Shown here: positions 1 to 33,069 of the stretch, piece by piece
Layout of the letters: each line of letters starts with the position of its first letter
Position numbering within the stretch: the stretch's first letter is position 1
Origin: Alphaproteobacteria bacterium
GTDB taxonomy: Bacteria > Pseudomonadota > Alphaproteobacteria > Micavibrionales > Micavibrionaceae
Assembly (NCBI GenBank): GCA_020848095.1
Contig: JADLAT010000002.1
Span: forward strand, 21,293-85,292
Length of the DNA stretch: 64,000 nucleotides
Direction of reading: 5' to 3'
The notes under the pieces: generated by a model
Told to the model about the DNA's origin: nothing
The model's input: only the letters and a program-made list of their open reading frames with translations
Databases searched by the model: none
Made by a program: the position numbers and the translations under genes

Positions 1-787
1 GGAAGCCAAACATACACGGCTTTACGGCCATATGCTGAGCAAAGAACCCGCTGCGCATGTGCCCGAAATTGTGCCCGAACTCTCCACGCGCCGCCTTTTG
101 ACCTCCACATGGCTTGATGGACAAAGGATTCTCAGCCTGAGTGATGCCCCTCTGGAACAAAGAAACCAGATCGCGCTTAATATGTTTCGCGCATGGTACG
201 TCCCATTCTACGACTACGGCACAATTCACGGCGACCCCCATCCCGGCAACTACACAGTGCGCGATGATCTTTCCATCAATCTTCTGGATTTTGGCTGCGT
301 TCGTGTTTTCCCGCCGGAATTTGTCGGGGGCGTCATCAATCTGTACAAGGCACTCATGACCGGTGACAACGCCTTGGCCGTTCACGCCTACGAAACATGG
401 GGCTTTAAAAACCTCTCCAAAGAGCAGGTTGAAACCCTGAACATCTGGGCAACATTCCTCTACGGCCCTATAATGGAAGATAAAATTCGCATCATCGGGC
501 ATGCCGATGGCGGCGTTTACGGGCGGGAAACGGCTGAAAAAGTACATATCCGCCTGCGGGAGCTTAGCCGGGAAAACGGCGGGATCAGCGTCCCACGCGA
601 ATTCGTATTCATGGATCGCGCCGCACTTGGCCTTGGTTCGGTATTCATCAGGCTGAGTGCGGAAATAAACTGGCACCGGCTCTTTAACGAGCTTATCGAG
701 AACTTTAACGTCGAGACCTTGCGCCAGCGTCAAAAAGAAGCCCTCCATCTTTTTGACCTGAACGACTCTACGCCTGAAAAGCCTTAA
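1..787 (+). CDS. ABC1/UbiB-family atypical kinase, C-terminal part (5' end lies outside the window)
   Basis: The reading frame is open from the window edge. It carries the HGDPHPGNY and LLDFG motifs characteristic of ABC1/AarF/UbiB kinases. Confidence 0.8.
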   Translation, partial: EAKHTRLYGHMLSKEPAAHVPEIVPELSTRRLLTSTWLDGQRILSLSDAPLEQRNQIALNMFRAWYVPFYDYGTIHGDPHPGNYTVRDDLSINLLDFGCVRVFPPEFVGGVINLYKALMTGDNALAVHAYETWGFKNLSKEQVETLNIWATFLYGPIMEDKIRIIGHADGGVYGRETAEKVHIRLRELSRENGGISVPREFVFMDRAALGLGSVFIRLSAEINWHRLFNELIENFNVETLRQRQKEALHLFDLNDSTPEKP

Positions 788-997: not shown

Positions 998-3900
998 GTG
1001 GACAAAAACAATATGACTCCGAAAACCTCCTCCCGAAAAAATGAGCAGGGAAACGTCTTTTTCGCCCTGTTCGGCGCGGTCGCAATTGTCGGTGTTCTGG
1101 GCGCGGGCATCATGTCCACCATGCGCGGCCCCCTCTCGACAATGGTCGAGGTTAACCGCCGGGAACAGGCCAAGGCCGAAATGCGGGTTGCCGCCAATCT
1201 GATTTTGGCGGGCGCGGCTCTTGATGAATGCGGCGATGCTGACGGCTTTACCGAAGCACCGCTTATGGATACAACCGGCACACATAAGCCGCTAAACGGC
1301 GGGGTAATCCCCGGCTCAATCGGTGCCACCAAAACCGATCCCTGGGGCAATCCATACGGTTATTGCGCCTGGAATCACGGCCCCGATGCCGCGGGACAAA
1401 CCACCTGCGTGGGCACTTTGGACGGAAGCGATAATGCCAACAACATTGCTATTGCGATAATCTCATCCGGCCCAGACGGCGTATTCACCACCGAATGCTA
1501 CAATGACGGCGTGGGGGATGACTATGTAAGACCAGACACCGGCAGCGGCGATGACATCGTTGAGCCCATGACCTATAACCAAGCGGTTGCCAGCACAGGC
1601 GGCCTATGGGCGGTTTCCGGCCCGACCGGTGCCTCCATTGATCGTGAATTGACCGTAACCAGCGCGGGCACATCCTCCTTTACCGGGGCGATAGAAGTCG
1701 GCTCCACAATCAAGGCCTCAACCTCCATCATTACCGATGCCCTCGTACCCATCAACGTAGGAACTCAGGATTACATCGACATCGCGGGCGGTATAAAAAT
1801 CGGTGATGTAACCGTATCGGGCTGCACAGGGGTCGGCGATGTCGGCATGCTGCGCGTCAATGGTACCAATCTTCAGGTTTGTAAGGGTGCTGCAGGCTGG
1901 CAAAGCGCAAGCGGTCAATGGAAAGACGGCGCCGCGGGAAAGATTTACTATGACACCGCCAATATCGGCGTAGGCACGATCACGGACCCGGCGCGCGCGC
2001 TGGATATCGGCGGCACATTCGGCGCAACAGGCGCTGCGACATTGGGTGATACCCTGAATGTCAGTGGCGCAACGACCCTCAGCAGTACACTGGCCGTCAC
2101 CGGCGCAACAACCCTCAGCAACACACTGGCTGTCGCGGGCGATTTTACCATCAATACCGATAAATTCACCGTGGATGCCACAAACGGCGATGTCGATGCC
2201 GCCGGCATTATCAATACCAGCGCGTATTACCAGATCGATGGCGACACCATGCTTCGCTCTGATACAGCCATGAATAAATCCGTTCTGCTCGGCAAGGATG
2301 CCGGCGCGAATGTAACGGGCAACAACAACACGATCCTGGGCGCAAACGCCGCATCCACTCTCACCAGCGGCAGCGGTAATATCGTAATTGGCGCTGGCTC
2401 GACAACCCCACTGGCTGCGCCAGATGTACCGGGCGCCACAACGGATGACTACCTCAATATAGGGAATATCCTGCATGGTAATTTAACAAACAAACGCCTT
2501 GGAATTGGTTTTGCCGATGATTATGACGCCAGCGGCTTTAACGACACACTTGAGGTCAACGGCAACACCGACATAGTAGGCAATCTGGCCGTTTCCGGAA
2601 CTTCCGTCTTTGGAACCACAGTCACAATCGAAAATGACGGTGATATCGTTGCCTCCGGCACAATCGCTGCCGCCGATTACACATGGAATGGCGTAGATTT
2701 CACCCCCCCCGGAAGCTGTAACGCCACGACAGAAAAAATGAACTGGAACGTCACCACCGGCTGGGAATGTATCGCTGATACAGCGGGCGGCAGCGGCGCG
2801 GGCGGTGCACTCAATTTTATCGACCTTGCCGACGTACCCAACAACTATACAGGCGCTGGTGGAAAAATTGTTGTCGTCAATGCCGGAGCAACCGGACTGG
2901 AATTTCTTGCACAAACCGCGCTTGAGGATGCCGGAAAATGGGAAGATTCGCTTGTCGGAGAAACCGATGACATTCGCCGCAACAAGGCCGATGGCGACGT
3001 TTTAATAGGTGCCGCCTCCTCCGCCGCCGTGGGCATTGATGCCAACGCCAGTAGTGATCTATACGTCGAAGGCCTGATAAAAACGGGAAGCAAAATTCTT
3101 GTTCCCGATGGCTCTGCCGCTGCGCCCTCCTACGTTTTCACCACATCGCCCACAACCGGGCTTTATCTGGACGCTGCCGACAGGCTGGGCTTTGCCACAG
3201 CGGGCGTAGCCAGAGCATATATTCTGGCCAATGGCGATGTCGGCATTGGCACCACCAGCGTTCCAACGGGCGTGGGCGGTGCCGGGCAAAATCTGCTCAT
3301 GGCGGTTAACGGCCCACTCGGCGCAACACATTATTGCGATGCCGCCGGCGAAAATTGCTTCACCGCCGCCGGCATAAGCAGCGCAAGTACGCCCGCCGGC
3401 GCCGACCGCGAAATTCAGTTCAACAATAATGGTGTTTTTGGCGCAAGTTCGACATTCAAGCTGATGTCCGATGGCGACCTGCTTCTGACAGGAACCTATA
3501 CCGGCACAGCCAGCGCACCTGTCGCCGGCGCCGGAACGCGCATGTTCTTCGACGCGCAAATGGGTGCCTTCCGGGCTGGATCCGTTGATTCAACACAATG
3601 GGATACCGCCAGTATCGGCATTTACAGTCAGGCCTTGGGCAGAAATGCAAAAGCGGGCGGAAGCTACAGTACGGCCCTGGGCACAAGCTCCAATGCTGAC
3701 GCCGCCTTCAGCCTGGCCTTGGGCCGCGACATAAACATTGCATCCTCAGCACCCGGCTCCGCAGGATTAGGGTTAAACCAGAACGCCGCAACGACAGATC
3801 CCATTATTTCCGGTTCAGAATCCTTTGGCATATTTATGGGAACACATAATAACGTTAACTTCGCCGTGGCAAACACCATGGGCGTATTCGGCGGAAAAAT

Positions 3901-6900
3901 GGTTATTGACCCGGCTATTCCGGCGACACAGCTAACGGCACGCGGCGTGCTTGATCTGGGCGCAGCCACAGATGCGCTTATCCTCCCGCGGGGAACAACT
4001 GCGCAGCAACCCGTCGCTCCCGCGGGCGGCATGATTCGCTACAACACAACGGCCACACCAAAAGATAAAGTCGAGTACTACGACGCAGAATCCACAAGCT
4101 GGATTCAACTCAGCGATGGAACCGGCGGTGCCACCCCAGCCGGCGCTGACCGTGAAATCCAGTTCAACAATAATGGTGTTATGGGTGCAAGCGCCGCGTA
4201 TAAGCTTATGGCTGATGGCGATCTGCTCCTGACAGGAGCTCATACCGGTACAGCCAGCGTTCCCGTTTCCGGTGCTGGTTCACGCATGTTTTTTGATGCA
4301 CAAATGAGCGCGTTCCGAGCCGGGTATGTAAATGGAACACAGTGGAATGATGTCAATATCGGCAATTACAGTACAGCATTCGGATTCGGCACAAGGGCCA
4401 GCGGTGATTCCAGCACAGCAATCGGAAATACAGTACTAGCCAGCGGTAGCAACAGCACGGCAATCGGATTTGGAACACTGGCCAGCGGCAGCTCCAGCAC
4501 AGCAATTGGAGCTGGAGCGGTAGCCAGTGGGACAACAAGTATAGCCGCGGGTGCATCAACGACAGCCAGCGGCATTTATAGCATAGCGATGGGGCGGGCC
4601 GCCGTTGCAGGAGATGGAACCGCCGGAAACGGACTAGGCGATGGCTCCATGGCGATTGGTCTTGTTGATGACAGCATTACCATTACAACAAAGCCCAAAG
4701 TTACAGGAATTCAGTCACTCGGCATTTTCATGGGTGATCAGGACGGCGGTGTTACACTGGCGGATCAAAACACCATGGGCCTGTTCGGCGGAAAAATGGT
4801 TATTGATCCGGCGGTTCCGGCAACGCAGCTCACCGCACGCGGCGTACTTGACCTCGGCGCGGCGACAGATGCCCTCGTCCTGCCCTCCGGCACGGATGCC
4901 CAGCAGCCTGCAGCCGTGAACGGGATGCTCCGTTACAACACGGACAATGGCAAATTCGAAGGCTATCAGGCGGGCGCATGGCAGGACATCCTGACCAGCG
5001 CCATTGCAGGCGGCGCAGCGGCCCCGGACCGAGGTATCCAGTTTAACAATAATGGAGATTTCGCGGCTGATGCTAAATTCACCTACACCACGGATGGCGA
5101 TTTGATTGTCGGCTCAAACCAGATCGATGACACCACCACGGGAACAGAAGATTCCCGCATGTATTTCGATGTGTCCAACAGCGCCTTCCGCGCGGGGAGC
5201 GTTACAGGCGGGGAATGGAACTTCGCGAGCGCCGGAGCGTACAGCGTGGCTTTCGGCTACAATACCATTGCGAGCGGGGTTCTTTCATTTGCAGGAGGAG
5301 ATTCCTCCACCGCGACAAATGCTTTCAGTTTTGCTTACGGCGATCAAAATGATGCGACAGGCCAAGCCAGTACAGCTTTTGGATCCAACAACAATGCATC
5401 AGGAGATTACAGTATTGTTTTTGGATCCAACAACAATGCAACTGGAGGCCATAGTTTTGCCGGTGGGGGAGATTCAATATGGGCAACAGGCGATTCATCT
5501 TTTGCATGGGGGAACTCTTCCCGCGCTGAAGGGGATACAAGTATAGCGATAGGCAATAATGTCAAATCGAGCGGCGTTTACGGGACGGCGTTTGGCAACA
5601 AGGTAGTTGTTGGCAACGGTACAGCGGGCAGTGGTTTTGGCGATGGATCCATGGCGATTGGTTTGATTGATGATGCGGTAACGATCACGACAAGGCCGCA
5701 GGTGACGGGAATCCAGTCGATGGGTATCTTCATGGGCGATCAGGATGGCGGTGTCGTGCTGGCCGATCAGAACACAATGGGCCTGTTCGGCGGCAAGATG
5801 GTCATAGACCCGGCGGTTCCGGCAACGCAGCTCACCGCACGCGGCGTGCTTGACCTCGGCGCGGCGACGGACGCCCTCGTCCTGCCCTCCGGCACGGATG
5901 CCCAGCGCCCCGGAACGCCGGCTGGCGGGATGATCCGCTATAACACAACGGCCACACCAAAAGACGTCATAGAATATTACGACGCAGAAAGCACAGCATG
6001 GATTCAGGTTCCTACCTCTACGACATCCACCCCCGCCGGCGCCGACCGCGAAATCCAGTTCAACAACGCGGGCGTTATGGGCGCAAGCGCCACGTATAAA
6101 CTTATGGCTGATGGTGATTTATTGCTCACAGGAACCTATACTGGTGTTGCCAGTGTTCCCGTAAGCGGCGCAGGAACGCGCATGTTTTTCGACACGCAAA
6201 CATCCGCTTTCCGCGCCGGGTATGTAAATGGAACACAGTGGAATGATGTCAATATCGGCAATTACAGCACAGCAATGGGCGCCAGTAACATTGCAAGCTA
6301 TAACTATGCTGTTGCCCTTGGACAGCAAAACACATCAAGCGGTTCGGCAAGCATAGCACTGGGCTCTTCAAATACAGCAACGGGTAGTGGCGCAAGCGGA
6401 GCGACAGCCATCGGATACAATAATTACTCAATGGGCGATGGCTCAATGGCTTTAGGAAAGAACAACAGCGTTACAAACCATGCCGGTTTTGCGATAGGAT
6501 CATACAATAATTCAGATGGCGAGAATATGGCCCTTGGCTTCTATGCCGATGTCACGGGAGGCGGCTCTATTGCTATTGGAGCCAGCACTGTTGACCCTGC
6601 CACGGATCCTGTCATTTCCGGCGCCCAATCCTTCGGTGTATTCATGGGCAATCATAGCGGCGTAGATTTTTCTGCGGCGAATACGGCAGGATTCTTCGGC
6701 GGAAAAATGGTTATTGATCCGGCGGTTCCGGCAACGCAACTCACCGCACGCGGCGTGCTTGATCTGGGCGCAGCCACAGACGCCCTCATCCTCCCCTCCG
6801 GCACCGATGCGCAACGCCCCGGCACGCCCGCAGGTGGAATGATCCGCTATAACACAACAACCACACCAAAAGACGTCATCGAATACTACGACGCTGAAAG

Positions 6901-9900
6901 TGCGGCATGGATTCAGGTCCCGTTCGCTACAACGGCTGCGCCCGCCGGTGCTGACCGCGAAATTCAATTTAATAATGCGGGTGTTATGGGCGCAAGCGCC
7001 GCCTATAAACTCATGTCAGATGGCGACCTGCTCCTTACCGGAACCTATACAGGCACAGCCAGCGCCCCTGCCACTGGCGCTGGAACGCGCATGTTTTTCG
7101 ATACACAATCTGCTGCCTTCAGAGCTGGCGGCATCACAGCCGCACAATGGGATACGGCCAGTCTGGGAATTTACAGCGTAGCCTTCGGCAAAGATACAAC
7201 AGCCAGCGGAAGCTACAGCGCGGCCTTCGGCCTAAGCAGCACCGCCAGCGGTACACAGAGTTTCGCCGCAGGCAACACCGCCATCGCCAGCAACTCTCAA
7301 AGTGTGTCCATGGGGAATACAACCACCGCCAGCGGCCTCCGAAGCGTTGCCATGGGCTTTACCACATCTGCAACCGCGGCAAGCAGCGTGGCCATGGGAA
7401 ATACCACGCTGGCCAGCGCGACAAACAGCGTTGCTATGGGAAACGCCACGCAAGCCACAGGCGCACACAGCGTCGCCATGGGCAGCTCAACCATCGCCAG
7501 CGGCTCGGCCAGCACGGCCATGGGTGTTTCTACCGTTGCCAGCGGCTGGAATAGCGTTGCCATGGGAAATACAACCACAGCCTCCGGGGCAGGAAGCGTC
7601 GCATTAGGAAGCATCACCACCGCCAGCGGTATTGCCAGCACCGCGCTGGGTGTAAGCGTAGCTGCAGGCGATGGAACTGCGAACAACGGAAAGGGCGATG
7701 GCTCCATAGCCTTCGGCCTGATCGATAATGCCGTTACCATCACCACCCCCTCTCAAGTAACCGGCATTCAATCCATGGGCATCTTCATGGGCGATCAGGA
7801 TGGGCTGGTCGTCTCTGCCGATAATCAAATGGGCCTGTTTGGCGGAAAAATGGTCATTGATCCAGCAATCCCGGCAACGCAGCTCACAGCCCGGAGCGTA
7901 CTTGATCTGGGCGCGGCAACGGATGCGCTTGTTCTACCCTCCGGCACAACCGCGCAGCAACCGGTCACCCCCGCCGGCGGGATGATCCGTTACAACACAA
8001 CGGCCACGCCAAATGACAAAGTCGAATACTACGATGCAGAATCCACAAGCTGGATACAGTTAGGCAGCGGCGGCAGCGGCGGAGCCGCGCTCTCTGGCAT
8101 CACCGCAGCGGTAGCTGCCAACACCATTGGCTCCGGTGATTACGCGCAGGCCTGGAACTGGACACTCACCACCGCAGCAAAATCCGCCATGACGTTCGGC
8201 GAAACTCTGGCCGCCACAAATGGTGCGGGCGCACAATCAGTCGTAAAAATGGCAACACTGGCTGCCTCCACCGCCATGCCCCTCTGGATTCAAAATGCCG
8301 GCAATGGGCTGTCTTTCCGGGTCGATGATGCCGCTTCCGATACAACCCCATTTGTAATTGATGCTGATGGCAAAGTGGGTATAGGCCTAAGTGCCCCAAC
8401 GGCTCCGCTGCATATAAAGGGCGCAAATGCGAATGGCGAATACCTCTTAGCCATGCAACAAAACGACCAGCACGCCGAATATATACAGATGAAAAACTCT
8501 GCAGGAACAACTGTTTTTGATATAGCGGGCTCATGGGGTTTCCCTTACATTAACCTCAGTGACACCTCTGGAACCGCTCGTGTCTCACTAACTACAGGGG
8601 GAGCCGCAGGACCACATCTTGTCGTCTTAACCTCCGTTAACAGACCTGACGGAGGAGAGCCCTACGGATTTGGTATCCGTGTCAATTACCCCAACAGTAT
8701 GGAAAATGGAATTATATTCGGCGATGGGAGCGGAAACGGTGCCTACGGCTCCGCTATTACAGGATATGACGGAGACTCGGGCGGATCGACTGACAATGGC
8801 GGCCTGCGCCTCAAGACAGGAAATGGAGTGCGTCCTACCACACGGGTACAAATTGACCCGGATGGAATAACCCGGTTCACCACCGCAGGCGCAATTGTTC
8901 TCCCCTCCGGCACCGATGCGCAACGCCCCGGCACGCCCGCCGGCGGAATGATCCGTTACAACACAACCGCCACGCCCAATGACAAAGTCGAGTATTACGA
9001 TGCGGAATCCACAAGCTGGATTCAATTGGGCAGCGGCGGCAGCGGCGGCACCATAGATGGCCTGACAGACGGAATAACCGACTATACCACCGACTTTAAT
9101 CTCTTCATGGGGCAAAATGCGGGCGCGGCCATTGCGGCAACCGGGCAATACAATCTGGCCATCGGCCAAAACGCCGGGGACACAATTTCCTCAGGTGATA
9201 GAAACATCGCCATCGGATACGATGTTCTAACCACCGGCGCAACAATGTCTGATAACATCGGCATTGGCTATAACGCGCTAAAACTCAATCAATCAGGGGG
9301 CCAATCCAACGTCGCTATCGGCGCATACGCTCTGGATGCCAACACGACAGGCGACACCAGCATCGCCATCGGCAAGAATGCTCTGGGGGGCAATCAAGGC
9401 GGCGGCGCCAATATTGCAATTGGGGAAGACGCACTTCTTTCCAACGTATCGGGCGTTGATAACGTTGCCATCGGGCCATGGGCGCTGGACGGCAGCACAG
9501 GCGACCGAAATCTGGGGATCGGCAGCGATGCACTGACCTTAACCACAGGAAGCGATAATATCGGCATCGGCTACCTCGCTGGGAACAACCTCACCAGCGG
9601 CAGCGGTAACATCATCATCGGATCCTCAAACGCAGCCACCACCGCGGGCGGAAGTAACCAACTCGACATCGGTGATACAATCTATGGCGACCTGAGTGAA
9701 AAACGCATTGGTATTGGCGCCGTTCCCGCCGCGGGCGTAGAACTGGATGTAACAGGCGACATTCAATACACAGGCACCCTCACCGATGTCTCCGATATGC
9801 GTCTGAAGAAAAACATCAGACCTCTCGGCAAAATGTTAGCTAAAATCAACCAGGTCAAAACCTACAGCTTCGTAATGAAGGACGATCAGGCAGGGCGCAC

Positions 9901-10273
9901 TGAATTTGGGGTAATGGCGCAGGAAATTGAAACCATTTTCCCCGAACTGGTCCGCACAGCCGAAGACGAAATGGGCACAAAGTCGGTAAACTATATCGGC
10001 TTGATTGCGCCGATTATTGAGGCTGTGCACGACCTCAGCACCGAAAATGAAGCGCTCCGCTCCGAAATAAACCTGATAAAGGCGGAAAATACCGAAGTCA
10101 GAGAATCGCTCGCCAGCCTCTCCCGGCAGGTCGAACTGCTCAACCGGGCTGCCAGCAAAAATATTGGCCAGGCCTCAATGCAGCCAATAGCCATAACCGC
10201 ACTTAGCCTGCTCTTGGGACTTATCGCTTTGATAGGCTCTGCTTCATACGCCATGCGCAGGAAAAGAGGCTAA
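998..10273 (+). CDS. Giant chimeric surface fibre/adhesin: pseudopilin-like N-terminal domain, tandem modules with YadA-head (Hep_Hag)-like repeats, S74 intramolecular-chaperone autocleavage domain, C-terminal TM anchor
   Basis: Single 9.3 kb ORF. The start is uncertain: GTG 998 sits 7 nt after AGGGGA, ATG 1013 is the alternative, and the ORF track starts at TTG 974. N-terminus: hydrophobic helix NVFFALFGAVAIVGVLG, then DPWGNPYGY and ISSGPDG, as in GspG-type pseudopilins. Middle: repeats such as NSVAMGNATQATGAHSVAMGSSTIASG. C-terminus: SDMRLKKNI...FGVMAQEIETIFPELV (endosialidase-chaperone/Peptidase_S74 type), a coiled coil, the TM segment ITALSLLLGLIALIGSASYA, then MRRKRG. Confidence 0.85.
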   Translation: MDKNNMTPKTSSRKNEQGNVFFALFGAVAIVGVLGAGIMSTMRGPLSTMVEVNRREQAKAEMRVAANLILAGAALDECGDADGFTEAPLMDTTGTHKPLNGGVIPGSIGATKTDPWGNPYGYCAWNHGPDAAGQTTCVGTLDGSDNANNIAIAIISSGPDGVFTTECYNDGVGDDYVRPDTGSGDDIVEPMTYNQAVASTGGLWAVSGPTGASIDRELTVTSAGTSSFTGAIEVGSTIKASTSIITDALVPINVGTQDYIDIAGGIKIGDVTVSGCTGVGDVGMLRVNGTNLQVCKGAAGWQSASGQWKDGAAGKIYYDTANIGVGTITDPARALDIGGTFGATGAATLGDTLNVSGATTLSSTLAVTGATTLSNTLAVAGDFTINTDKFTVDATNGDVDAAGIINTSAYYQIDGDTMLRSDTAMNKSVLLGKDAGANVTGNNNTILGANAASTLTSGSGNIVIGAGSTTPLAAPDVPGATTDDYLNIGNILHGNLTNKRLGIGFADDYDASGFNDTLEVNGNTDIVGNLAVSGTSVFGTTVTIENDGDIVASGTIAAADYTWNGVDFTPPGSCNATTEKMNWNVTTGWECIADTAGGSGAGGALNFIDLADVPNNYTGAGGKIVVVNAGATGLEFLAQTALEDAGKWEDSLVGETDDIRRNKADGDVLIGAASSAAVGIDANASSDLYVEGLIKTGSKILVPDGSAAAPSYVFTTSPTTGLYLDAADRLGFATAGVARAYILANGDVGIGTTSVPTGVGGAGQNLLMAVNGPLGATHYCDAAGENCFTAAGISSASTPAGADREIQFNNNGVFGASSTFKLMSDGDLLLTGTYTGTASAPVAGAGTRMFFDAQMGAFRAGSVDSTQWDTASIGIYSQALGRNAKAGGSYSTALGTSSNADAAFSLALGRDINIASSAPGSAGLGLNQNAATTDPIISGSESFGIFMGTHNNVNFAVANTMGVFGGKMVIDPAIPATQLTARGVLDLGAATDALILPRGTTAQQPVAPAGGMIRYNTTATPKDKVEYYDAESTSWIQLSDGTGGATPAGADREIQFNNNGVMGASAAYKLMADGDLLLTGAHTGTASVPVSGAGSRMFFDAQMSAFRAGYVNGTQWNDVNIGNYSTAFGFGTRASGDSSTAIGNTVLASGSNSTAIGFGTLASGSSSTAIGAGAVASGTTSIAAGASTTASGIYSIAMGRAAVAGDGTAGNGLGDGSMAIGLVDDSITITTKPKVTGIQSLGIFMGDQDGGVTLADQNTMGLFGGKMVIDPAVPATQLTARGVLDLGAATDALVLPSGTDAQQPAAVNGMLRYNTDNGKFEGYQAGAWQDILTSAIAGGAAAPDRGIQFNNNGDFAADAKFTYTTDGDLIVGSNQIDDTTTGTEDSRMYFDVSNSAFRAGSVTGGEWNFASAGAYSVAFGYNTIASGVLSFAGGDSSTATNAFSFAYGDQNDATGQASTAFGSNNNASGDYSIVFGSNNNATGGHSFAGGGDSIWATGDSSFAWGNSSRAEGDTSIAIGNNVKSSGVYGTAFGNKVVVGNGTAGSGFGDGSMAIGLIDDAVTITTRPQVTGIQSMGIFMGDQDGGVVLADQNTMGLFGGKMVIDPAVPATQLTARGVLDLGAATDALVLPSGTDAQRPGTPAGGMIRYNTTATPKDVIEYYDAESTAWIQVPTSTTSTPAGADREIQFNNAGVMGASATYKLMADGDLLLTGTYTGVASVPVSGAGTRMFFDTQTSAFRAGYVNGTQWNDVNIGNYSTAMGASNIASYNYAVALGQQNTSSGSASIALGSSNTATGSGASGATAIGYNNYSMGDGSMALGKNNSVTNHAGFAIGSYNNSDGENMALGFYADVTGGGSIAIGASTVDPATDPVISGAQSFGVFMGNHSGVDFSAANTAGFFGGKMVIDPAVPATQLTARGVLDLGAATDALILPSGTDAQRPGTPAGGMIRYNTTTTPKDVIEYYDAESAAWIQVPFATTAAPAGADREIQFNNAGVMGASAAYKLMSDGDLLLTGTYTGTASAPATGAGTRMFFDTQSAAFRAGGITAAQWDTASLGIYSVAFGKDTTASGSYSAAFGLSSTASGTQSFAAGNTAIASNSQSVSMGNTTTASGLRSVAMGFTTSATAASSVAMGNTTLASATNSVAMGNATQATGAHSVAMGSSTIASGSASTAMGVSTVASGWNSVAMGNTTTASGAGSVALGSITTASGIASTALGVSVAAGDGTANNGKGDGSIAFGLIDNAVTITTPSQVTGIQSMGIFMGDQDGLVVSADNQMGLFGGKMVIDPAIPATQLTARSVLDLGAATDALVLPSGTTAQQPVTPAGGMIRYNTTATPNDKVEYYDAESTSWIQLGSGGSGGAALSGITAAVAANTIGSGDYAQAWNWTLTTAAKSAMTFGETLAATNGAGAQSVVKMATLAASTAMPLWIQNAGNGLSFRVDDAASDTTPFVIDADGKVGIGLSAPTAPLHIKGANANGEYLLAMQQNDQHAEYIQMKNSAGTTVFDIAGSWGFPYINLSDTSGTARVSLTTGGAAGPHLVVLTSVNRPDGGEPYGFGIRVNYPNSMENGIIFGDGSGNGAYGSAITGYDGDSGGSTDNGGLRLKTGNGVRPTTRVQIDPDGITRFTTAGAIVLPSGTDAQRPGTPAGGMIRYNTTATPNDKVEYYDAESTSWIQLGSGGSGGTIDGLTDGITDYTTDFNLFMGQNAGAAIAATGQYNLAIGQNAGDTISSGDRNIAIGYDVLTTGATMSDNIGIGYNALKLNQSGGQSNVAIGAYALDANTTGDTSIAIGKNALGGNQGGGANIAIGEDALLSNVSGVDNVAIGPWALDGSTGDRNLGIGSDALTLTTGSDNIGIGYLAGNNLTSGSGNIIIGSSNAATTAGGSNQLDIGDTIYGDLSEKRIGIGAVPAAGVELDVTGDIQYTGTLTDVSDMRLKKNIRPLGKMLAKINQVKTYSFVMKDDQAGRTEFGVMAQEIETIFPELVRTAEDEMGTKSVNYIGLIAPIIEAVHDLSTENEALRSEINLIKAENTEVRESLASLSRQVELLNRAASKNIGQASMQPIAITALSLLLGLIALIGSASYAMRRKRG
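3389..9049 (+). repeat. Five large imperfect tandem modules (about 240-375 aa each) plus a sixth partial copy, inside the giant fibre gene
   Basis: Each module opens with PAGADREIQFNN(N/A)GV.GAS..(F/Y)KLM.DGDLLLTG (nt ~3389, 4135, 5020, 6030, 6935). Each closes with GLFGGKMVIDPA.PATQLTARGVLDLGAATDAL.LPSGT.AQ.P...GGMIRYNT....EYYDAES..WIQ (nt ~4110, 4990, 6010, 6915, 8060), and the closing block alone recurs at 8890-9049. The closing blocks are near-identical at DNA level, for example 4810-4905 versus 5816-5910. Confidence 0.85.
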
Positions 10274-10389: not shown

Positions 10390-10465
10390 GCGCCCGTAGC
10401 TCAGGGGATAGAGCACTGGTTTCCGGAACCAGGTGTCGGGGGTTCGAATCCCTCCGGGCGCGCCA
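10390..10465 (+). tRNA. tRNA-Arg (anticodon CCG), CCA encoded
   Basis: Hand-folded cloverleaf. Acceptor GCGCCCG/CGGGCGC, anticodon stem CTGGT/ACCAG with loop TTCCGGA, T-loop TTCGAAT. Confidence 0.9.
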
Positions 10466-24098: not shown

Positions 24099-24103
24099 TT
24101 ATA

Positions 24104-24883: not shown

Positions 24884-25843
24884 CTACCCCCCGACCCCGG
24901 CTGCGGAAGCCTGAATACCGGCTGGACCCAAAATAATGATAAACAAGGCAGGAAGGAAAAATAAAATCATCGGAACCGTCAGCTTTGGCGGCAGGGAAGC
25001 CGCCTTCTGCTCTGCCGTAGCCATCCGCATTTCCCTGATTTCGTCAGACATAACGCGCATAGCCTGAGAAACCGAAGTCCCGTATTGTTCCGCCTGAATA
25101 AGCGCCGTAGCAAAACTTTTTGCCGCACCACTTCCCACACGGCGCGCAAAGTCCTGCAAGGCCTGCCGCCGATCATTCAACATCGCCATTTCCGCGCTTA
25201 AAATTCCAAGCTCCTCAGCCAGAACCTCAGAATGATCCGATACTTCCTGCGCCACGCGGTCAACCGTTTGCTCCAGGCCAATCCCCCCCTGCACACAAAT
25301 CAACATCATATCCAGCGCATCCGGAAAGCTCAGATTAATTTCCTGCTGGCGTTTAAGGATACGGTTTTTAATCAAAATATCAGGCAATTTATACCCGCTC
25401 ACCGCCGCAACAAAAATAAAAAGCAGCTTCATAAGGCTGGAAATTTCTTTCTCGCTGCCGGAAATTACCATCATGGTCAAGACGCAAAACACCAAGGGCA
25501 GCACCCCTTGCGCAATCATGAATTTTATAGGTGCGGATGGATTACGTATCCCGGCCTGCAGCATTTTATCACGCATTTTTTCGCCCATCTCACCGGCCAT
25601 CTTTTGCATCTTATAAAGAGAGGCCATGGAATCCCGTGCAGATGTCGTTGCTTGCTGTGCGCGGCCACGGTGAATGCTGCCGTCTTTTGTTGCTTCAAAC
25701 AAAGCCTTTCGTCGTTTTTCAATAACGGCTCTAAAGCGTTCTTTTTTCTCTGACCGGTTTAAAAACGGCAAGGCAAACCCCACGAACGAAGCCGCAGCAA
25801 AAACAGCGCTCAAAAGCGTTATAACGGTTTGATCATCCATCAA
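24884..25843 (-). CDS. tadC: Flp pilus assembly inner-membrane protein TadC (T2SS F family)
   Basis: Polytopic membrane protein immediately after tadB in the cpaF-tadB-tadC order. T2SSF-like segment FPDALDMMLICVQGG. Confidence 0.85.
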   Translation of the reverse strand: MMDDQTVITLLSAVFAAASFVGFALPFLNRSEKKERFRAVIEKRRKALFEATKDGSIHRGRAQQATTSARDSMASLYKMQKMAGEMGEKMRDKMLQAGIRNPSAPIKFMIAQGVLPLVFCVLTMMVISGSEKEISSLMKLLFIFVAAVSGYKLPDILIKNRILKRQQEINLSFPDALDMMLICVQGGIGLEQTVDRVAQEVSDHSEVLAEELGILSAEMAMLNDRRQALQDFARRVGSGAAKSFATALIQAEQYGTSVSQAMRVMSDEIREMRMATAEQKAASLPPKLTVPMILFFLPALFIIILGPAGIQASAAGVGG

Positions 25844-25853
25844 AGCCTCCCAA

Positions 25854-26837
25854 TTAAATTTTAAAGTTAATCATTACTTTCATCACAAGGATGCCGATCA
25901 ACATCCAGACAATCGCAATCGTCAGCAAAATTTTTCCAAACGGGTCGGTAAATAAAACACTGATATATTCATAGTTTGTAAAATACATCCCCGTAGCCAC
26001 GAGCAAAGGCAAAGCGCCAATAATGCTGGCCGAGGCCACCGCCTCGGAAGAAAGCGCCTTGATCTTGCGCTTAAGCCGAAAACGCGAACGAATAACGCCT
26101 GAGAGATTCATCAAAACCTCCGAAAGAGAAGAACCGGTCTGCGCCTGAATAGAAAGGCCCGTGGCAAACATCTGCATCTCGGTTAACGGCATCCGGCGCG
26201 TAGCCAGCAATGCGGCCTCATGCAGCGGCACCCCGATTTTCTGCTGGTCATATATGCGTGACATTTCCTCCCCCACCGGGCCGGAAAATTCACGCGCAAT
26301 CATGGAAATCGCCTCAGCCACCGGCATACCGGCCTTAAGCAGCCTGACTGTTGCCTCCAGAGCATCGGGAAACTCCGAAAGAAATTTTTTCTGACGCTTC
26401 GCGGCAAAGCGTTTGAGCATAAAACGCGGCACACCAAGCAACCCTATAACCCCTGCCAATAAAATAATATGGGGGGCCTGCCCCATAATCTTCGCCATAA
26501 AAACAAGAAAAAACATGGATATAAAAGATAAAATCCAGAATTTTTTAATGGAAATAGACAGGCCTGCCTGCTCTATTTGCTGCGAAATTGGTGTCTTCTT
26601 TTTATCTGATTTTTCATCGCCCTCACGGCTGTCTTTCAGCTTTCTGGCAATTTCTGCTCTGCGTTTATCCTGCTGCCCCTTTTGAAAGCCAGAGCTCTGC
26701 GTTACGGCACCCTGCCCCCTGATTTTTTCCAGCATCTTTTTTTTGCGCGCATTATCTTTGTTCACAATGAACAATAGCCCCGTCGCAACCGCAATCAGAG
26801 CAATAAAAGCAACCAGCACAATTTGTATCAGGCCCAT
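25854..26837 (-). CDS. tadB: Flp pilus assembly inner-membrane protein TadB (T2SS F family)
   Basis: Follows cpaF. T2SSF-like segment FPDALEATVRLLKAGMP. Confidence 0.85.
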   Translation of the reverse strand: MGLIQIVLVAFIALIAVATGLLFIVNKDNARKKKMLEKIRGQGAVTQSSGFQKGQQDKRRAEIARKLKDSREGDEKSDKKKTPISQQIEQAGLSISIKKFWILSFISMFFLVFMAKIMGQAPHIILLAGVIGLLGVPRFMLKRFAAKRQKKFLSEFPDALEATVRLLKAGMPVAEAISMIAREFSGPVGEEMSRIYDQQKIGVPLHEAALLATRRMPLTEMQMFATGLSIQAQTGSSLSEVLMNLSGVIRSRFRLKRKIKALSSEAVASASIIGALPLLVATGMYFTNYEYISVLFTDPFGKILLTIAIVWMLIGILVMKVMINFKI

Positions 26838-26882
26838 TTCAAACTATCCGCAAAAAATATATATGCCGCACGAAAACGGCCA

Positions 26883-28448
26883 CTAATCAAATGCCTCCTC
26901 CATTGCATCCAAAACCAGTTTATCAACGCCGAATTGGCGCGCCTTATCAAAAAATTTCGGGCGCAATCCGGTTGATCTATGCTTCGTGATCAATTTCCCC
27001 TTATCGTCTTCACCTAATATATCGAGCACAAAAAGATCCTGCATGGACACGACATCGCCTTCCATGCCTGTAATCTCTGTGACATGCGTAGTTTTACGCG
27101 ATCCATCGCGAAGACGCTGCACCTGAATAACCACATTCACCGCCGAGGCAATCTGTTCCCGCACCGCCTTTTGTGGCAAATTCAAACCACCCATCGCGAT
27201 CATATTTTCCATACGACTCAGGGCTTCTCGCGGGTTATTGGCATGCACCGTTCCCATAGAACCATCATGCCCCGTATTCATCGCCTGCAGCAAATCAAAC
27301 GCCTCCGGCCCGCGCACCTCCCCCACAATAATCCGCTCCGGACGCATCCGCAGACAATTCTTAACCAGATCACGCATCGTGACCTCACCCACGCCCTCAA
27401 GATTGGGAGGCCGCGTCTCCAGCCGAACAACATGCGGTTGCTGCAACTGTAGCTCACAGGCATCCTCACACGTAATGATCCGCTCACCCTGTTCGATATA
27501 GCGTGTAAGACAATTCAGCATTGTCGTCTTGCCGGAACCAGTCCCACCGGAAACCAGAACATTCACCCGCGAGCGTCCAACCGCCATAATCAGCTTAGCG
27601 CAGGAAGGCGTCATAGAGCCAAATTCCATCAGCTTTTCTAACGTCAGCTTATCTTTGGTAAATTTCCGGATCGTCATACACGCGCCGTCCACAGCCAAAG
27701 GCGGAATAATAACATTCACGCGGCTGCCGTCGGGAAGTCGCGCATCGCAAATCGGAGAGGATTCATCAACCCGGCGACCAATGGCGCCGACGATACGTTG
27801 ACAAATCGTTGTTAAATGCTGGTTATCTCTAAACTTTATAGACGCTCTCTGGATTCTTCCAGACACCTCTATATAGGTCGTACCCGGGCCGTTGATCATG
27901 ATGTCGGCAATATCATCGCGCTCTAACAATTCTTCCAATGGCCCGAAGCCAAGCATATCATCAGCGCATTCCTTCGCTATGGATTGCAGCTCTGCCGGGG
28001 TCAGGTCAAGATTACGAAAGCGGGCAATTTCCTCAACTGCGGAATAAACCTCATCCCGCGCCGATTTGGAATTCATACCGGCCAGCGCCTTTAAGTCAAT
28101 CCCGTCCCGTAAATCCAGCCAAATGCGGTTACGCGCCCTTTGCAGTCGTAGCGCAGTAATGGAATCGCTGCTCCCCGTCCCTGCATTTCCACGTGCCTCA
28201 TCTGCGGCACTATCAATAAACCCTTGAGCGAAAGGGTCTTCCTCTGTTGAGATTTTTTGTTTTTCTTTATCTTTTTGTATGGGGCTTTCGGAAGCCTTTT
28301 CAACCGCAACATTTTCTTTCAATGCCGCAGGCTTCTCCACCAAAGATGGAGCCATATCTTCACTCGGTTTTGGCTTTTCCGGAGGCTTGCTCGCAAAAGA
28401 GTCTGATCTTTGCTGCGCATCAGAAGAGGATGTTTTTTTACCAAACAT
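26883..28448 (-). CDS. cpaF: Flp pilus assembly ATPase CpaF/TadA
   Basis: Walker A VSGGTGSGKTT plus the secretion-ATPase Asp/His boxes (RIITCEDACEL, MRPERIIVGEVRG, NTGHDGSMGTVHAN). Confidence 0.95.
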   Translation of the reverse strand: MFGKKTSSSDAQQRSDSFASKPPEKPKPSEDMAPSLVEKPAALKENVAVEKASESPIQKDKEKQKISTEEDPFAQGFIDSAADEARGNAGTGSSDSITALRLQRARNRIWLDLRDGIDLKALAGMNSKSARDEVYSAVEEIARFRNLDLTPAELQSIAKECADDMLGFGPLEELLERDDIADIMINGPGTTYIEVSGRIQRASIKFRDNQHLTTICQRIVGAIGRRVDESSPICDARLPDGSRVNVIIPPLAVDGACMTIRKFTKDKLTLEKLMEFGSMTPSCAKLIMAVGRSRVNVLVSGGTGSGKTTMLNCLTRYIEQGERIITCEDACELQLQQPHVVRLETRPPNLEGVGEVTMRDLVKNCLRMRPERIIVGEVRGPEAFDLLQAMNTGHDGSMGTVHANNPREALSRMENMIAMGGLNLPQKAVREQIASAVNVVIQVQRLRDGSRKTTHVTEITGMEGDVVSMQDLFVLDILGEDDKGKLITKHRSTGLRPKFFDKARQFGVDKLVLDAMEEAFD

Positions 28449-28465
28449 ATCTGACTACGCCCCTC

Positions 28466-29719: not shown

Positions 29720-29803
29720 GGATCGCCGTAATCGCCTCTTATAATTGATTGTGTGTTACCCAGACTTTAGCCTACCGAGTATAACCGACAATTGGTTAAC
29801 ACA

Positions 29804-30445: not shown

Positions 30446-30464
30446 CTTAAATCCTGCTCTCACC

Positions 30465-32042: not shown

Positions 32043-32129
32043 AAAACGAAGACTTCCACTTAAAAATACAAAAGAGCCGTAAAACTACGCAGGGAACTTG
32101 GTTAATCACAAGGCCAGAACAAGAACGCT

Positions 32130-33014: not shown

Positions 33015-33069
33015 AATTTAAAGCCTCATCCGATGCGGAAATTTCATTAAAAGCGCAAGAACGCCGCCG

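What the first reader, a model, noticed from the sequence alone, without database searches (positions are those of the whole stretch)
998..10273. Chimeric ~3,090-aa fibre combining pilin-like, trimeric-autotransporter-head-like and phage-tailspike elements
**Architecture seen in the translation.**
- A pseudopilin-like N-domain.
- Long Gly/Ala/Thr-rich beta-type sequence.
- Five modules mixing Hep_Hag/YadA-head-type 14-mers (SVAMGN.T.ASG...) with a conserved neck (GLFGGKMVIDPAVPATQLTARGVLDLGAATDALVLPSGTDAQRP..GGMIRYNT....EYYDAES..WIQ).
- A C-terminal Peptidase_S74 intramolecular chaperone domain (SDMRLKKNI cleavage-site motif).
- A TM tail.

**Why it is odd.**
- There is no YadA-type beta-barrel anchor, so it is not a canonical trimeric autotransporter.
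- There are no neighbouring phage genes, so it is not a prophage tail fibre.
- S74 domains drive trimerisation and then cut themselves off in phage tailspikes. Cellular fibres using them have only recently begun to be characterised.
- How this protein would cross the outer membrane is unexplained by anything in the window.
Basis: partly seen in the sequence, partly recalled or inferred. Interest (0 to 1): 0.7.

Follow-up and report, generated by a model that had tools for sequence, protein, structure and literature searches.

The report
Giant pilin-anchored tail-fibre-like surface fibre
This is an intact 3,086-residue gene for a long surface fibre built from phage tail-fibre parts and bacterial adhesin heads; it belongs to a large, apparently undescribed family found mainly in Micavibrio-like (predatory) bacteria, and its pilin-like front end and membrane-tethered self-cleaving rear end suggest a testable route for assembly and export.

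Summary
One uninterrupted ORF (998/1013-10273, +) encodes about 3,090 aa.
- **Supported domains:** YadA_head (E 2e-36), Peptidase_S74 (4e-16, with an S2927-D-x-x-x-K2932 dyad), five head+neck modules and a C-terminal TM helix + RRKRG.
- **Neck:** it is a phage module (PHROG hits to 7e-46), not a trimeric-autotransporter neck.

The gene is not a one-off.
- Its N-terminal 215 aa define a family of at least 1,132 protein clusters, and the domain is N-terminal in all 150 hits listed.
- In 60 of 83 fetched loci, mostly Micavibrio-like MAGs, the gene sits directly after ubiB.
- Of 43 S74-bearing ORFs in those loci, 28 end in a TM helix plus basic tail.

The N-domain looks pilin-like, but homology is weak.
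- It has a basic leader, a near-invariant Gly and no Glu5. The model shows a 55-residue helix followed by β-strands.
- EpsG and PulG rank first in the sequence and fold searches of the PDB, but neither hit is significant.

Best reading: a chromosomal mosaic trimeric adhesin. It folds against a membrane-tethered S74 chaperone, is cut free, and is then held or extruded through its pilin-like N-terminus. It is a new variant of the Bdellovibrio MAT-fibre / modular-pilin theme.

The parts
998..10273 (+). Whole fibre gene. Start is GTG 998 with an AGGGGA Shine-Dalgarno at 985-990, or ATG 1013. Stop codon at 10271-10273.
1013..1051 (+). Basic leader, aa 1-13 (MTPKTSSRKNEQG), ending in the near-invariant Gly13.
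1052..1210 (+). Long N-terminal helix, aa 14-66. The first ~24 residues are hydrophobic (NVFFALFGAVAIVGVLGAGIMSTM). There is no Glu at +5.
1211..1657 (+). Globular part of the conserved N-domain, aa 67-215. Motifs: DxDG..E, GG.IP, DPWGNPYGYCAW, ISSGPDG, GDDIV, GGLW. Conserved Cys118 and Cys162.
1658..3391 (+). Proximal stalk, aa 216-793. Gly/Thr-rich beta-type repeats. Contains a relic 'fibre-end' segment (aa ~435-500) that is 40% identical to the pre-S74 segment.
3392..4135 (+). Module 1, aa 794-1041: adaptor, YadA-like head repeats and neck.
4136..5023 (+). Module 2, aa 1042-1337.
5024..6031 (+). Module 3, aa 1338-1673.
6032..6940 (+). Module 4, aa 1674-1976.
6941..8092 (+). Module 5, aa 1977-2360. 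It has the longest head, which gives the best PDB match (BpaC head, E 8.6e-14).
8093..8887 (+). Intermediate domain, aa 2361-2625, with no family assignment.
8888..9082 (+). Sixth copy of the phage-type LPSGT.AQRP...RYNT...W module, aa ~2626-2690.
9083..9790 (+). Distal beta-helix-type repeats (N.AIG..AL), aa 2691-2926. This would be the fibre tip after cleavage. Matches phage tail fibre and tail spike PHROGs.
9791..9955 (+). Peptidase_S74 intramolecular chaperone domain, aa 2927-2981, with the S2927/K2932 dyad.
9980..10162 (+). Heptad-like, coiled-coil-type segment after S74, aa ~2990-3050.
   Evidence: weak TIGR04211 coil+anchor-like hit
10187..10270 (+). C-terminal TM helix, aa 3059-3081, followed by the RRKRG tail.
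2..787 (+). 3' part of ubiB (ABC1 kinase), the conserved upstream neighbour of the fibre gene.
10390..10465 (+). tRNA-Arg(ccg) directly downstream. The same tRNA lies on the same strand just past the fibre gene's S74 end in L027 and L038, and farther downstream in L014.
24884..36831 (-). Complete Tad/Flp type IVc pilus locus. This is context and a candidate export machine, not shown to be linked to the fibre gene. Genes: TadC, TadB, CpaF, CpaE, CpaD, CpaC secretin, CpaB, CpaA prepilin peptidase, Flp pilin (33712-34002), TadG-VWA, and two TadE-like genes.

Best explanation
The gene encodes a chromosomal, vertically inherited mosaic trimeric surface fibre, most likely an adhesin. The host is a Micavibrio-like alphaproteobacterium, a group whose cultured members are epibiotic predators.

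**Proposed mechanism**
1. **Insertion (inferred).** The N-terminal basic leader and hydrophobic helix insert N-in into the inner membrane, as a type IV pilin does. About 3,020 residues are translocated to the periplasm. The C-terminal TM helix with its RRKRG tail stops transfer, so both ends are tethered in the inner membrane.
2. **Trimerisation (domain shown, action inferred).** The membrane-tethered S74 intramolecular chaperone plus coiled coil brings three C-termini into register. It nucleates trimer folding of the beta-helix, the phage-type modules and the YadA-like heads.
3. **Cleavage (motif shown, cleavage inferred).** S74 cuts at Ser2927. This leaves a ~160-aa chaperone/TM stub in the membrane and frees the distal tip, much as MYRF is released from the ER membrane.
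4. **Display (inferred, least certain).** The mature ~2,900-aa trimer is now held only by three pilin-like N-domains that lack Glu5, as tip subunits such as GspK and TadG-type pilins do. A type IV filament machine takes it up and pushes it through a secretin. The Tad system 14.6 kb away is the only such machine in the window. The fibre is then displayed as a long prey- or surface-binding filament.

The variable number of head/neck modules tunes length and specificity.
For: **Domains**
- YadA_head E 2e-36 and Peptidase_S74 E 3.9e-16.
- The PDB sequence search hits BpaC, UspA1 and EibD heads, and the S74-bearing phage T5 long tail fibre 6f45.
- PHROG tail fibre and tail spike families match aa 2650-3038. 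The neck module hits phage families at up to 7e-46.
- The SDxRxK motif is conserved in 43 family ORFs. Of these, 28 have a C-terminal TM helix plus basic tail.

**Family and inheritance**
- The N-domain profile finds 1,132 cluster representatives at E<=1e-3 and 675 at E<=1e-30. The domain is N-terminal in all 150 listed hits, in proteins of 238-6,785 aa.
- 220 genomic matches, nearly all in Micavibrio or alphaproteobacterial MAGs.
- ubiB lies directly upstream in 60 of 83 loci, and in the window.
- Many loci repeat the layout N-domain...heads/necks...S74 within one ORF.

**Pilin-like N-end**
- Near-invariant Gly13 after a basic leader, and never Glu at +5.
- AlphaFold2 models show helix 12-66 followed by three beta-strands. 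pLDDT is 69 (full 334 aa) and 75 (trimmed); pTM of the trimmed model is 0.76.
- EpsG pseudopilin is the first of two PDB sequences matched by the family profile, aligned across GG.I..DPWGN.Y.Y.
- PulG pseudopilin is the top Foldseek hit.
- EpsG versus the family exceeds all 60 shuffles: 192 members at E<1, against at most 40 for any shuffle.
- An unrelated lineage combines a canonical N_methyl prepilin motif (24.1 bits, cut-off 21.2), YadA_head and S74 in a single protein, P0259.

**Machine in the window**
- A complete Tad locus with CpaC secretin and CpaA prepilin peptidase.

**Precedents**
- Bdellovibrio MAT fibres (PMC10769870).
- Trimeric alpha1N-bundle Tad tips in Myxococcus (PMC12075869).
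- Modular pilins (PMC8179133).
- MYRF, which has S74 followed by a TM helix (PMC3742443, PMC3742440).
Against: - **Pilin homology is not statistically established.** The EpsG hit has E 0.72. The PulG hit has E 0.91 and TM-score 0.24-0.34. hhalign aligns only 21 columns. No N_methyl, T2SSG or Tad Pfam/NCBIfam hit was found.
- **The leader is non-canonical.** It reads G|NVFFALF, with no Phe1/Glu5.
- **Tad genes are rarely nearby.** They lie within 10 kb of the fibre gene in only 2 of 83 related loci (L061, L062). In the window a 13.8-kb low-GC stretch separates them from the fibre gene.
- **Geometry is a problem.** A folded fibre of this size, probably more than 150 nm by scaling from Bd3182, is much longer than the periplasm is wide. 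Folding in the periplasm before export is therefore awkward.
- **No direct data.** Trimerisation, cleavage, surface display and expression were not and could not be tested here.
Confidence: 0.55

Rival explanations
1. Same fibre, but no pilus is involved. The N-terminal helix is only a signal-anchor, or an unusually long Sec signal. The conserved N-domain binds a cell-envelope component, as proposed for the N-domain of Bdellovibrio MAT fibres. The fibre reaches the surface by an unidentified route.
For: - No significant match to pilin models.
- No conserved linkage to pilus genes.
- MAT fibres use a plain signal peptide plus an anchoring domain with an unknown partner (PMC10769870).
- A short relative, P0171, carries an ordinary signal peptide in front of the same modules.
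Against: - The hydrophobic stretch is ~24 residues long and continues as one helix to residue 66 in the model. That is TM/pilin-like, not Sec-signal-like.
- A T2SS pseudopilin ranks first in both PDB searches.
- The conserved Gly precedes the hydrophobic stretch.
- No known route takes a protein anchored in the inner membrane by its N-terminus to the surface, other than type IV filament assembly.
Confidence: 0.3
2. The gene is a prophage, tailocin or other mobile-element tail fibre gene, or a remnant of one.
For: - S74, tail-fibre PHROGs and phage-type neck modules.
- An integrase fragment and a low-GC island lie downstream.
Against: - No virion genes in the window.
- The gene's GC content (53-57%) sits at the top of the window's non-island range, not with the island's 45-47%.
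- The same ubiB-fibre arrangement is seen in 60 loci from different genomes.
- The N-domain occurs once in 2.9 million viral contigs, and that contig has no virion genes.
- No viral fold match.
Confidence: 0.03
3. The gene is a canonical type Vc trimeric autotransporter whose beta-barrel anchor was lost to mis-assembly or a frameshift, or is supplied in trans.
For: - YadA_head repeats, and weak NCBIfam Ata/YadA/BimA hits far below cut-off.
- Some sources name relatives 'trimeric autotransporter adhesin'.
Against: - No YadA anchor anywhere in the ORF.
- The ORF ends in S74 plus a TM helix, and this ending is conserved in 28 related complete ORFs.
- Repeats are too diverged to cause assembly collapse.
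- TAA heads sit at the N-terminal, distal end. Here polarity is reversed: the C-terminus is distal after cleavage.
Confidence: 0.02

Closest known systems
Bdellovibrio bacteriovorus MAT (mosaic adhesive trimer) fibres (Caulton et al. 2024, PMC10769870)
   Same: - Chromosomal, not prophage, fibres of a predatory bacterium.
- Mosaic of phage-like beta-helix segments.
- 13 of 21 MAT fibres end in an autoproteolytic S74 chaperone with SDxxxK.
- VG(G/N)...P...L-type loops occur near the S74 end (here IGIGAVPAAGVEL).
- A conserved N-terminal domain is presumed to hold the fibre on the cell.
- The export route across the outer membrane is unknown.
   Different: - MAT fibres have a cleavable signal peptide followed by a ~130-aa beta-rich N-domain. 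This fibre has a basic leader, a 55-residue helix and a GspG-like alpha/beta domain.
- MAT fibres are ~1,000 aa; this one is ~3,090 aa with five YadA-type head modules.
- The sections of the MAT paper read here do not describe a TM helix after S74.
- The phylum differs: Alphaproteobacteria versus Bdellovibrionota.
- N-domain homology between the two was not tested.
Modular type IV pilins and pilus tip complexes (S. sanguinis PilB, PMC8179133; Myxococcus Kil/Tad Tips with TadG/KilN, PMC12075869; GspK-type tip pseudopilins)
   Same: - An N-terminal pilin-type helix fused to a large functional C-terminal part.
- Tip subunits lack Glu5.
- The base of Tad Tips is a bundle of three alpha1N helices, which a homotrimeric fibre would also provide.
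- In Myxococcus, tips are interchangeable determinants of prey range.
   Different: - Known tips are heterotrimers of different minor pilins encoded in pilus operons. This would be a homotrimer encoded away from pilus genes.
- The appended part is about ten times larger.
- The leader is not a canonical prepilin motif, and homology to pilins is only weakly indicated.
Phage tail fibres and tailspikes with a C-terminal intramolecular chaperone (K1F endosialidase, T5 pb1; Peptidase_S74)
   Same: - S74 domain with a Ser/Lys dyad.
- A preceding triple beta-helix-type repeat region.
- PHROG tail fibre families match the last ~400 aa.
   Different: - Not in a virion gene cluster.
- The N-terminus is a membrane/pilin-like domain instead of a tail-attachment domain.
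- S74 is followed by a coiled coil and a TM anchor.
MYRF (eukaryotic membrane-bound transcription factor, PMC3742443, PMC3742440)
   Same: - An S74/ICA domain is followed by a TM helix.
- Trimerisation-dependent self-cleavage releases the N-terminal trimer from its membrane tether.
   Different: - Eukaryotic ER protein.
- The released part is a DNA-binding domain, not a fibre.
- It has no N-terminal membrane helix.
Trimeric autotransporter adhesins (YadA, BpaC, UspA1, Ata)
   Same: YadA-type left-handed beta-roll head repeats. The best PDB sequence match is the BpaC head (E 8.6e-14).
   Different: - No beta-barrel translocator.
- No TAA neck or stalk families detected.
- Opposite polarity relative to the membrane anchor.

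Membership tests
Trimeric autotransporter adhesin (type Vc) | C-terminal YadA-type 12-stranded beta-barrel anchor (4 strands per chain) | tested here: not met
   Pfam and NCBIfam scans of the full protein give no anchor hit. The C-terminus is S74 + coiled coil + TM.
Trimeric autotransporter adhesin (type Vc) | YadA-like head repeats | tested here: met
   PF05658 at E 2e-36 with 12 stretches. PDB matches to BpaC, UspA1, Hep_Hag and EibD heads.
Trimeric autotransporter adhesin (type Vc) | TAA neck/stalk connectors | tested here: not met
   No neck or stalk Pfam family at E<=0.1. The conserved 'neck' matches phage PHROG families instead.
Peptidase_S74 intramolecular-chaperone fibres | S74 domain above the curated threshold | tested here: met
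   59.5 bits against a cut-off of 22, at aa 2927-2981. Also matches phage T5 fibre 6f45.
Peptidase_S74 intramolecular-chaperone fibres | Catalytic Ser...Lys dyad (SDxxxK) | tested here: met
   S2927-D-M-R-L-K2932. The motif is conserved in 43 family ORFs.
Peptidase_S74 intramolecular-chaperone fibres | Trimerisation-dependent autocleavage | not testable with these tools
   Requires protein expression of wild type versus S2927A.
Phage/tailocin tail fibre (as a virion component) | Encoded among tail/baseplate genes of a (pro)phage | tested here: not met
   No virion genes in the window. Conserved ubiB synteny. The N-domain is essentially absent from viral contigs.
Bdellovibrio MAT fibres | Conserved ~130-aa beta-rich N-domain directly after a signal peptide | not tested
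   No MAT sequence was compared. The predicted N-end here (55-residue helix plus sheet) does not fit the published description.
Bdellovibrio MAT fibres | Mosaic fibre ending in S74 (or an alternative tip), chromosomal, in a predatory bacterium | tested here: met
   The predatory lifestyle is inferred only from the Micavibrio-like relatives.
Type IV pilin / pseudopilin (type IV filament subunit) | Class III signal peptide: short basic leader, Gly at -1, hydrophobic stretch (N_methyl motif) | tested here: inconclusive
   A basic leader and near-invariant Gly13 precede a 24-residue hydrophobic stretch. No PF07963, TIGR02532 or Tad model hit was found.
Type IV pilin / pseudopilin (type IV filament subunit) | Glu at +5 | tested here: not met
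   Position +5 is Ala, Thr or Ser across the family. From general knowledge, tip subunits of the GspK/PilX type also lack it. The window's own TadG lacks it too.
Type IV pilin / pseudopilin (type IV filament subunit) | ~50-residue alpha1 helix packed on an antiparallel beta-sheet | tested here: met
   The AlphaFold2 models show helix 12-66 and strands 116-121, 145-151 and 182-187, at moderate confidence.
Type IV pilin / pseudopilin (type IV filament subunit) | Detectable homology to known pilins | tested here: inconclusive
   EpsG is the first of two PDB sequence hits (E 0.72). PulG is the top Foldseek hit (E 0.91). hhalign gives 79% probability over 21 columns. The result exceeds 60 of 60 shuffles.
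Type IV pilin / pseudopilin (type IV filament subunit) | Cleavage by prepilin peptidase and incorporation into a filament | not testable with these tools
   Requires biochemistry or cryo-ET.
C-terminal sorting signals (PEP-CTERM, LPXTG, GlyGly-CTERM and similar) | Signature motif + TM + basic tail recognised by a sortase-type enzyme | tested here: not met
   NCBIfam finds no sorting-signal model. The only match is a weak TIGR04211 coil+anchor resemblance.

The most novel reading that the evidence does not exclude
The family is a homotrimeric giant 'modular pilin'. Three Glu5-less pilin-like N-domains would form the cap of a type IV filament (Tad, T4a or a T2SS-like pseudopilus). Micavibrio-like bacteria would then display a 150-250 nm phage-tail-fibre/YadA-head filament on the end of a pilus to catch prey. 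The S74-coiled-coil-TM tail would act as a disposable inner-membrane assembly jig that is cut off before extrusion. This would be a new way to build and export a surface fibre. It might also suggest how MAT-type fibres leave the cell.
Probability: 0.3. Interest if true: 0.85.

Novelty: new variant of a known kind. Interest (0 to 1): 0.62.

Why it matters
- **A testable route for a known gap.** S74-terminated cellular fibres were first characterised in Bdellovibrio in 2024. How they are anchored and how they cross the outer membrane is still unknown. This family pairs such a fibre with two conserved membrane elements, a pilin-like N-terminus and a TM-tethered chaperone. Together they point to a concrete assembly pathway that can be tested.
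- **A candidate prey-recognition determinant.** The gene sits in one conserved chromosomal slot across Micavibrio-like genomes. Its central modules vary widely between genomes, which is what one expects of a determinant of prey or surface specificity. No paper found in the library searches here, including the Micavibrio ARL-13 genome paper and a 2025 predation review, mentions this family.
- **Convergent use of S74 self-cleavage.** S74 followed by a membrane anchor (as in MYRF), by a T9SS sorting domain, or by nothing suggests that evolution repeatedly uses S74 self-cleavage to discard a targeting or tethering tag.

Tried and rejected
- **Exact-sequence look-up** of the 3,086-aa protein: not on record.
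- **Foldseek with the full 334-aa N-terminal model:** nothing meaningful. The trimmed model gave PulG first, but not significantly. The viral fold library gave nothing.
- **Pfam scan of 17 N-domain homologues:** no pilin family. T2SSG reached only E 0.14, in one member.
- **hhalign against EpsG:** only a 21-column local match.
- **att-type direct repeat** that would delimit the low-GC stretch between tRNA-Arg and tRNA-Val: none found. The idea that the fibre gene and the Tad locus were once adjacent therefore remains conjecture.
- **Tad genes in the flanks of 83 related loci:** found only in L061 and L062. In L062 they lie just beyond the ubiB synteny block. Linkage is at best loose.
- **Context of the canonical prepilin+S74 family (P0259, P0297):** housekeeping neighbours and no pilus genes.
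- **Prophage reading:** rejected.
- **Repeat mis-assembly reading:** rejected.
Full report
**1.

The + strand carries one open frame from 974 to 10273. Likely starts are GTG 998, with AGGGGA 7 nt upstream, and ATG 1013. I number from ATG 1013, which gives 3,086 aa.

- **Composition.** Gly, Ala, Thr and Ser make up 47% of the residues.
- **Hydrophobic segments.** There are exactly two: aa 14-37, after a basic leader, and aa 3059-3081, followed by RRKRG.
- **Pfam.** YadA_head at E 2e-36 (12 stretches) and Peptidase_S74 at E 3.9e-16 (aa 2927-2981). There is no YadA anchor.
- **NCBIfam.** Only far-sub-threshold Ata, YadA and BimA head similarity.
- **PDB sequences.** The protein matches BpaC, UspA1, Hep_Hag and EibD heads, and the S74-bearing long tail fibre of phage T5.
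- **Modules.** Five modules start at aa 794, 1042, 1338, 1674 and 1977. Each ends in GxFGGKMVIDP...LPSGT.AQ.P...RYNT...W. The first 50 neck residues are 82-96% identical between copies. A sixth copy of the second half sits at aa 2648.
- **Catalytic motif.** S2927-D-M-R-L-K2932. Cleavage there would leave a 160-aa C-fragment.
- **Assembly.** DNA identity between modules is 63-87%, so an assembly artefact is unlikely.

**2. What the 'neck' is**

The conserved connector is not a trimeric-autotransporter neck. Its LPSGT...RYNT...W half hits many phage protein families: phrog_25721 at 7e-46, and also phrog_2803, 38538, 1325, 5636, 5621 and others, each with 4-6 stretches. The last ~400 residues hit phage tail fibre and tail spike families (phrog_1980, 5481, 4636, 33119).

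Residues ~435-500 are 40% identical to the segment just before S74. This looks like a relic fibre end inside the stalk, and so a trace of mosaic evolution.

**3. Not a one-off: a large family in a fixed chromosomal slot**

- A word-indexed search with the first 334 aa found 16 relatives, all with the same ~215-aa N-domain. One of them also carries S74.
- A profile of the domain, run against 1.84 billion representatives, finds 1,132 proteins at E<=1e-3 and 675 at E<=1e-30. In all 150 listed hits the domain lies at the N-terminus (starting between residues 1 and ~114), in proteins of 238 to 6,785 aa.
- In species-representative genomes there are 220 matches. Most of the best 80 are Micavibrio or unclassified alphaproteobacterial MAGs, and the best identity is 52%. 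The window therefore probably comes from a Micavibrio-like alphaproteobacterium. This is an inference.
- In these loci the same order recurs within single ORFs of 1,000-3,400+ aa: N-domain, then heads and necks, then S74.
- The SDxRxK motif occurs near the C-terminus in 43 ORFs. Of these, 28 then end in a TM helix plus a basic tail, as the window's protein does. The rest end in a coiled coil.
- Clustering of flanking ORFs shows ubiB (ABC1 kinase) directly upstream on the same strand in 60 of 83 loci, and in the window (70% identical). Further upstream lie a DotI/IcmL-like gene, gapR, COQ9, EVE, tsaD, gpsA and acs.
- tRNA-Arg(ccg) follows on the same strand in the window, just past the S74 end in L027 and L038, and farther downstream in L014.

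This is vertical inheritance with a rapidly changing middle, not a mobile element.

**4. Not phage**

- The window has no virion genes.
- The N-domain occurs once in 2.9 million viral contigs. That contig carries resolvase, Fic, ArdA and AAA_13 genes and no virion genes.
- The viral fold library gives nothing.

**5. The N-terminal domain**

What the sequence shows:
- Alignment of 53 members gives a basic leader, then near-invariant G13, then N-V-F-F-(A/T)-L-F-G-A-V-A-x-V-G-V-L-G-A-G, then G39-P40.
- Further on come D77, E81, GG.xP, D109-P-W-G-x-x-Y-G-Y-C-A-W, ISAGPD, G-D-D-I-V and GGLW. Cys118 and Cys162 are conserved.
- Position +5 after the Gly is never Glu.

What the models show:
- AlphaFold2 predicts one helix from residue 12 to 66, followed by three beta-strands and a short helix.
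- pLDDT is 69 for the full 334-aa model. The trimmed domain gives pLDDT 75 and pTM 0.76.
- This is the topology of a type IV pilin.

Homology is suggestive but not established:
- The family profile matches only two PDB sequences at E<=10. The first is the T2SS major pseudopilin EpsG (E 0.72), aligned from the end of alpha1 through GGyI..DPWGNeYqY.
- The top Foldseek hit of the trimmed model is the pseudopilin PulG (E 0.91), and a type IVb pilin ranks third.
- hhalign gives 79% probability, but over only 21 columns.
- EpsG was run against 258 family N-termini. It gives 192 hits at E<1 and a best E of 7e-4 without its TM segment. The best of 60 shuffles gives at most 40 hits and E 3e-3.
- By eye, the later GspG motifs also have collinear counterparts: 'φxφφ(S/T)xG(A/P)DG' matches IAIAIISSGPDG, and 'G.G..DI' matches GSGDDIV. 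They are separated by lineage-specific insertions. This is my reading, not a statistic.
- No Pfam or NCBIfam pilin model matches.

Independent support for the concept: P0259 comes from an unrelated lineage. It combines a canonical prepilin N_methyl motif (AFTLAEMMVV; 24.1 bits against a cut-off of 21.2), YadA_head and S74 in 725 aa. It has a small family of relatives.

**6.

A complete Tad/Flp type IVc pilus locus lies on the - strand at 24,884-36,831. It contains:
- TadC and TadB
- CpaF ATPase
- CpaE (MinD-like)
- CpaD
- CpaC secretin
- CpaB
- CpaA prepilin peptidase
- an Flp pilin (G|ATAIEYGLIAAG)
- TadG with a VWA domain
- two TadE-like pseudopilins

Between it and the fibre gene lie tRNA-Arg, a 45-47% GC stretch with an RTX-lipase and lipase paralogues, an integrase fragment, and tRNA-Val. 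I found no att repeat, so former adjacency is conjecture.

Among related loci, Tad genes occur within 10 kb only in L061 and L062. The Tad system is therefore a candidate partner, not a demonstrated one. The M. aeruginosavorus genome paper reports T4a pil genes, a highly expressed Flp pilin, and a T2SS that lacks GspC, G, H and K (PMC3189940).

**7. Mechanism**

- **Shown:** the domain set, the catalytic motif, the two-TM layout with positive charges at both cytoplasmic ends, and their conservation across the family.
- **Inferred:**
  - Pilin-like insertion of the N-terminus.
  - Translocation of ~3,020 residues, with stop-transfer at the C-terminal helix.
  - C-terminal nucleation of the trimer by a membrane-tethered S74 and coiled coil.
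  - Self-cleavage at S2927, which leaves the chaperone stub in the membrane. This has the same logic as MYRF, where an S74/ICA domain next to a TM helix releases a trimer from the membrane (PMC3742443, PMC3742440).
  - Extraction of three Glu5-less pilin-like helices into the cap of a type IV filament and passage through a secretin.
- **Precedents:**
  - A bundle of three alpha1N helices is exactly the predicted base of Tad 'Tips' in Myxococcus (PMC12075869).
  - Modular pilins with appended adhesin domains are established (PMC8179133).
  - One Bacteroidota-type relative has S74 followed by a T9SS sorting domain (P0212). This suggests that what follows S74 is generally a disposable targeting or tethering tag.
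- **Weak points:** pilin homology is not significant, there is no conserved linkage to a pilus machine, and it is unclear how a fibre far longer than the periplasm is wide would fold before export.

**8. Comparison and novelty**

The closest known system is the Bdellovibrio MAT fibre family (PMC10769870).
- **Shared:** the same idea (chromosomal, mosaic, S74-terminated trimeric fibres in a predator) and the same open question about anchoring and export.
- **Different:** the N-end (signal peptide plus beta-rich domain in MAT). The sections of that paper read here describe no post-S74 TM helix and no YadA heads.

This protein is not a trimeric autotransporter, because it has no barrel. It is not a virion fibre.

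My library searches found no description of this family. A 2025 review of contact-dependent predation discusses fibre adhesins only for Bdellovibrio.

I rate it a new variant of a known kind, with interest 0.62. The most novel reading not excluded is a phage-fibre-tipped pilus built with a cleavable membrane jig. I give that a probability of about 0.3.

Noticed in passing
window 10,466-24,268: A low-GC (45-47%) stretch lies between tRNA-Arg(ccg) and tRNA-Val(gac). It holds an integrase N-terminal fragment (23625-24098, -), a 1,865-aa RTX/lipase protein with 25 RTX repeat stretches (15812-21409, -), three lipase-like paralogues (21406-23400, -), and four ORFs with no family match (10585-15468). 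It looks like a degraded genomic island, but no flanking att repeat was found.
   Followed up: partly
window 24,884-36,831 (- strand): A complete Tad/Flp type IVc pilus gene cluster, including an Flp pilin at 33712-34002 and a TadG with a VWA domain.
   Followed up: yes
window 37,500-39,605 (- strand): A 701-aa ORF next to the Tad cluster. It has no Pfam or PHROG hit and only a weak, far-sub-threshold resemblance to the kinase region of LanL.
   Followed up: no
window 46,733-48,288 (- strand): Tol-Pal genes: CpoB/YbgF (TolA_bind_tri + TPR) and Pal (OmpA domain). In Bdellovibrio, CpoB marks the vesicle in which MAT fibres were found. Probably a coincidence here.
   Followed up: no
window 2,315-2,509 versus 9,545-9,718: Residues ~435-500 of the fibre are 40% identical (E 5e-10) to the segment just before S74. 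This is an internal relic of a fibre terminus and points to module shuffling.
   Followed up: partly
P0259 / L084 10001-12178; P0297 / L086: An unrelated small family combines a canonical prepilin N_methyl motif with YadA_head and S74. It sits after panD in a housekeeping context with no pilus genes nearby. In L086 the gene is split into three called pieces.
   Followed up: partly
P0212: An S74 domain followed by a T9SS Por_Secre_tail sorting domain. The segment after S74 seems to serve as a removable targeting tag in different phyla.
   Followed up: no
L045 7530-8339 and 52 other loci: A DotI/IcmL-like gene (Pfam 49 bits, NCBIfam 58 bits) is conserved just upstream of ubiB, on the opposite strand, two genes before the fibre gene. 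The published M. aeruginosavorus genome is reported to lack a type IV secretion system.
   Followed up: no
L052, L054, L066, L078: Tandem arrays of three or four shorter paralogues (1,000-2,800 aa). Most have the same N-domain and S74 but end in a coiled coil without a TM helix.
   Followed up: no
L001 10001-15251: The family member here is called as two overlapping genes (424 aa N-domain + 1,330 aa with S74). This is probably a frameshift or sequencing error. It is followed by a Fibrinogen_C-domain gene.
   Followed up: no
P0008, P0010, P0012, P0013 / L002: Short family members (~440-470 aa) carry the N-domain, an 'ATKKYVDD' motif typical of phage fibres, and a Cys-rich C-terminal domain instead of S74. 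In L002 three ~900-aa paralogues with no family hit lie upstream on the other strand.
   Followed up: no
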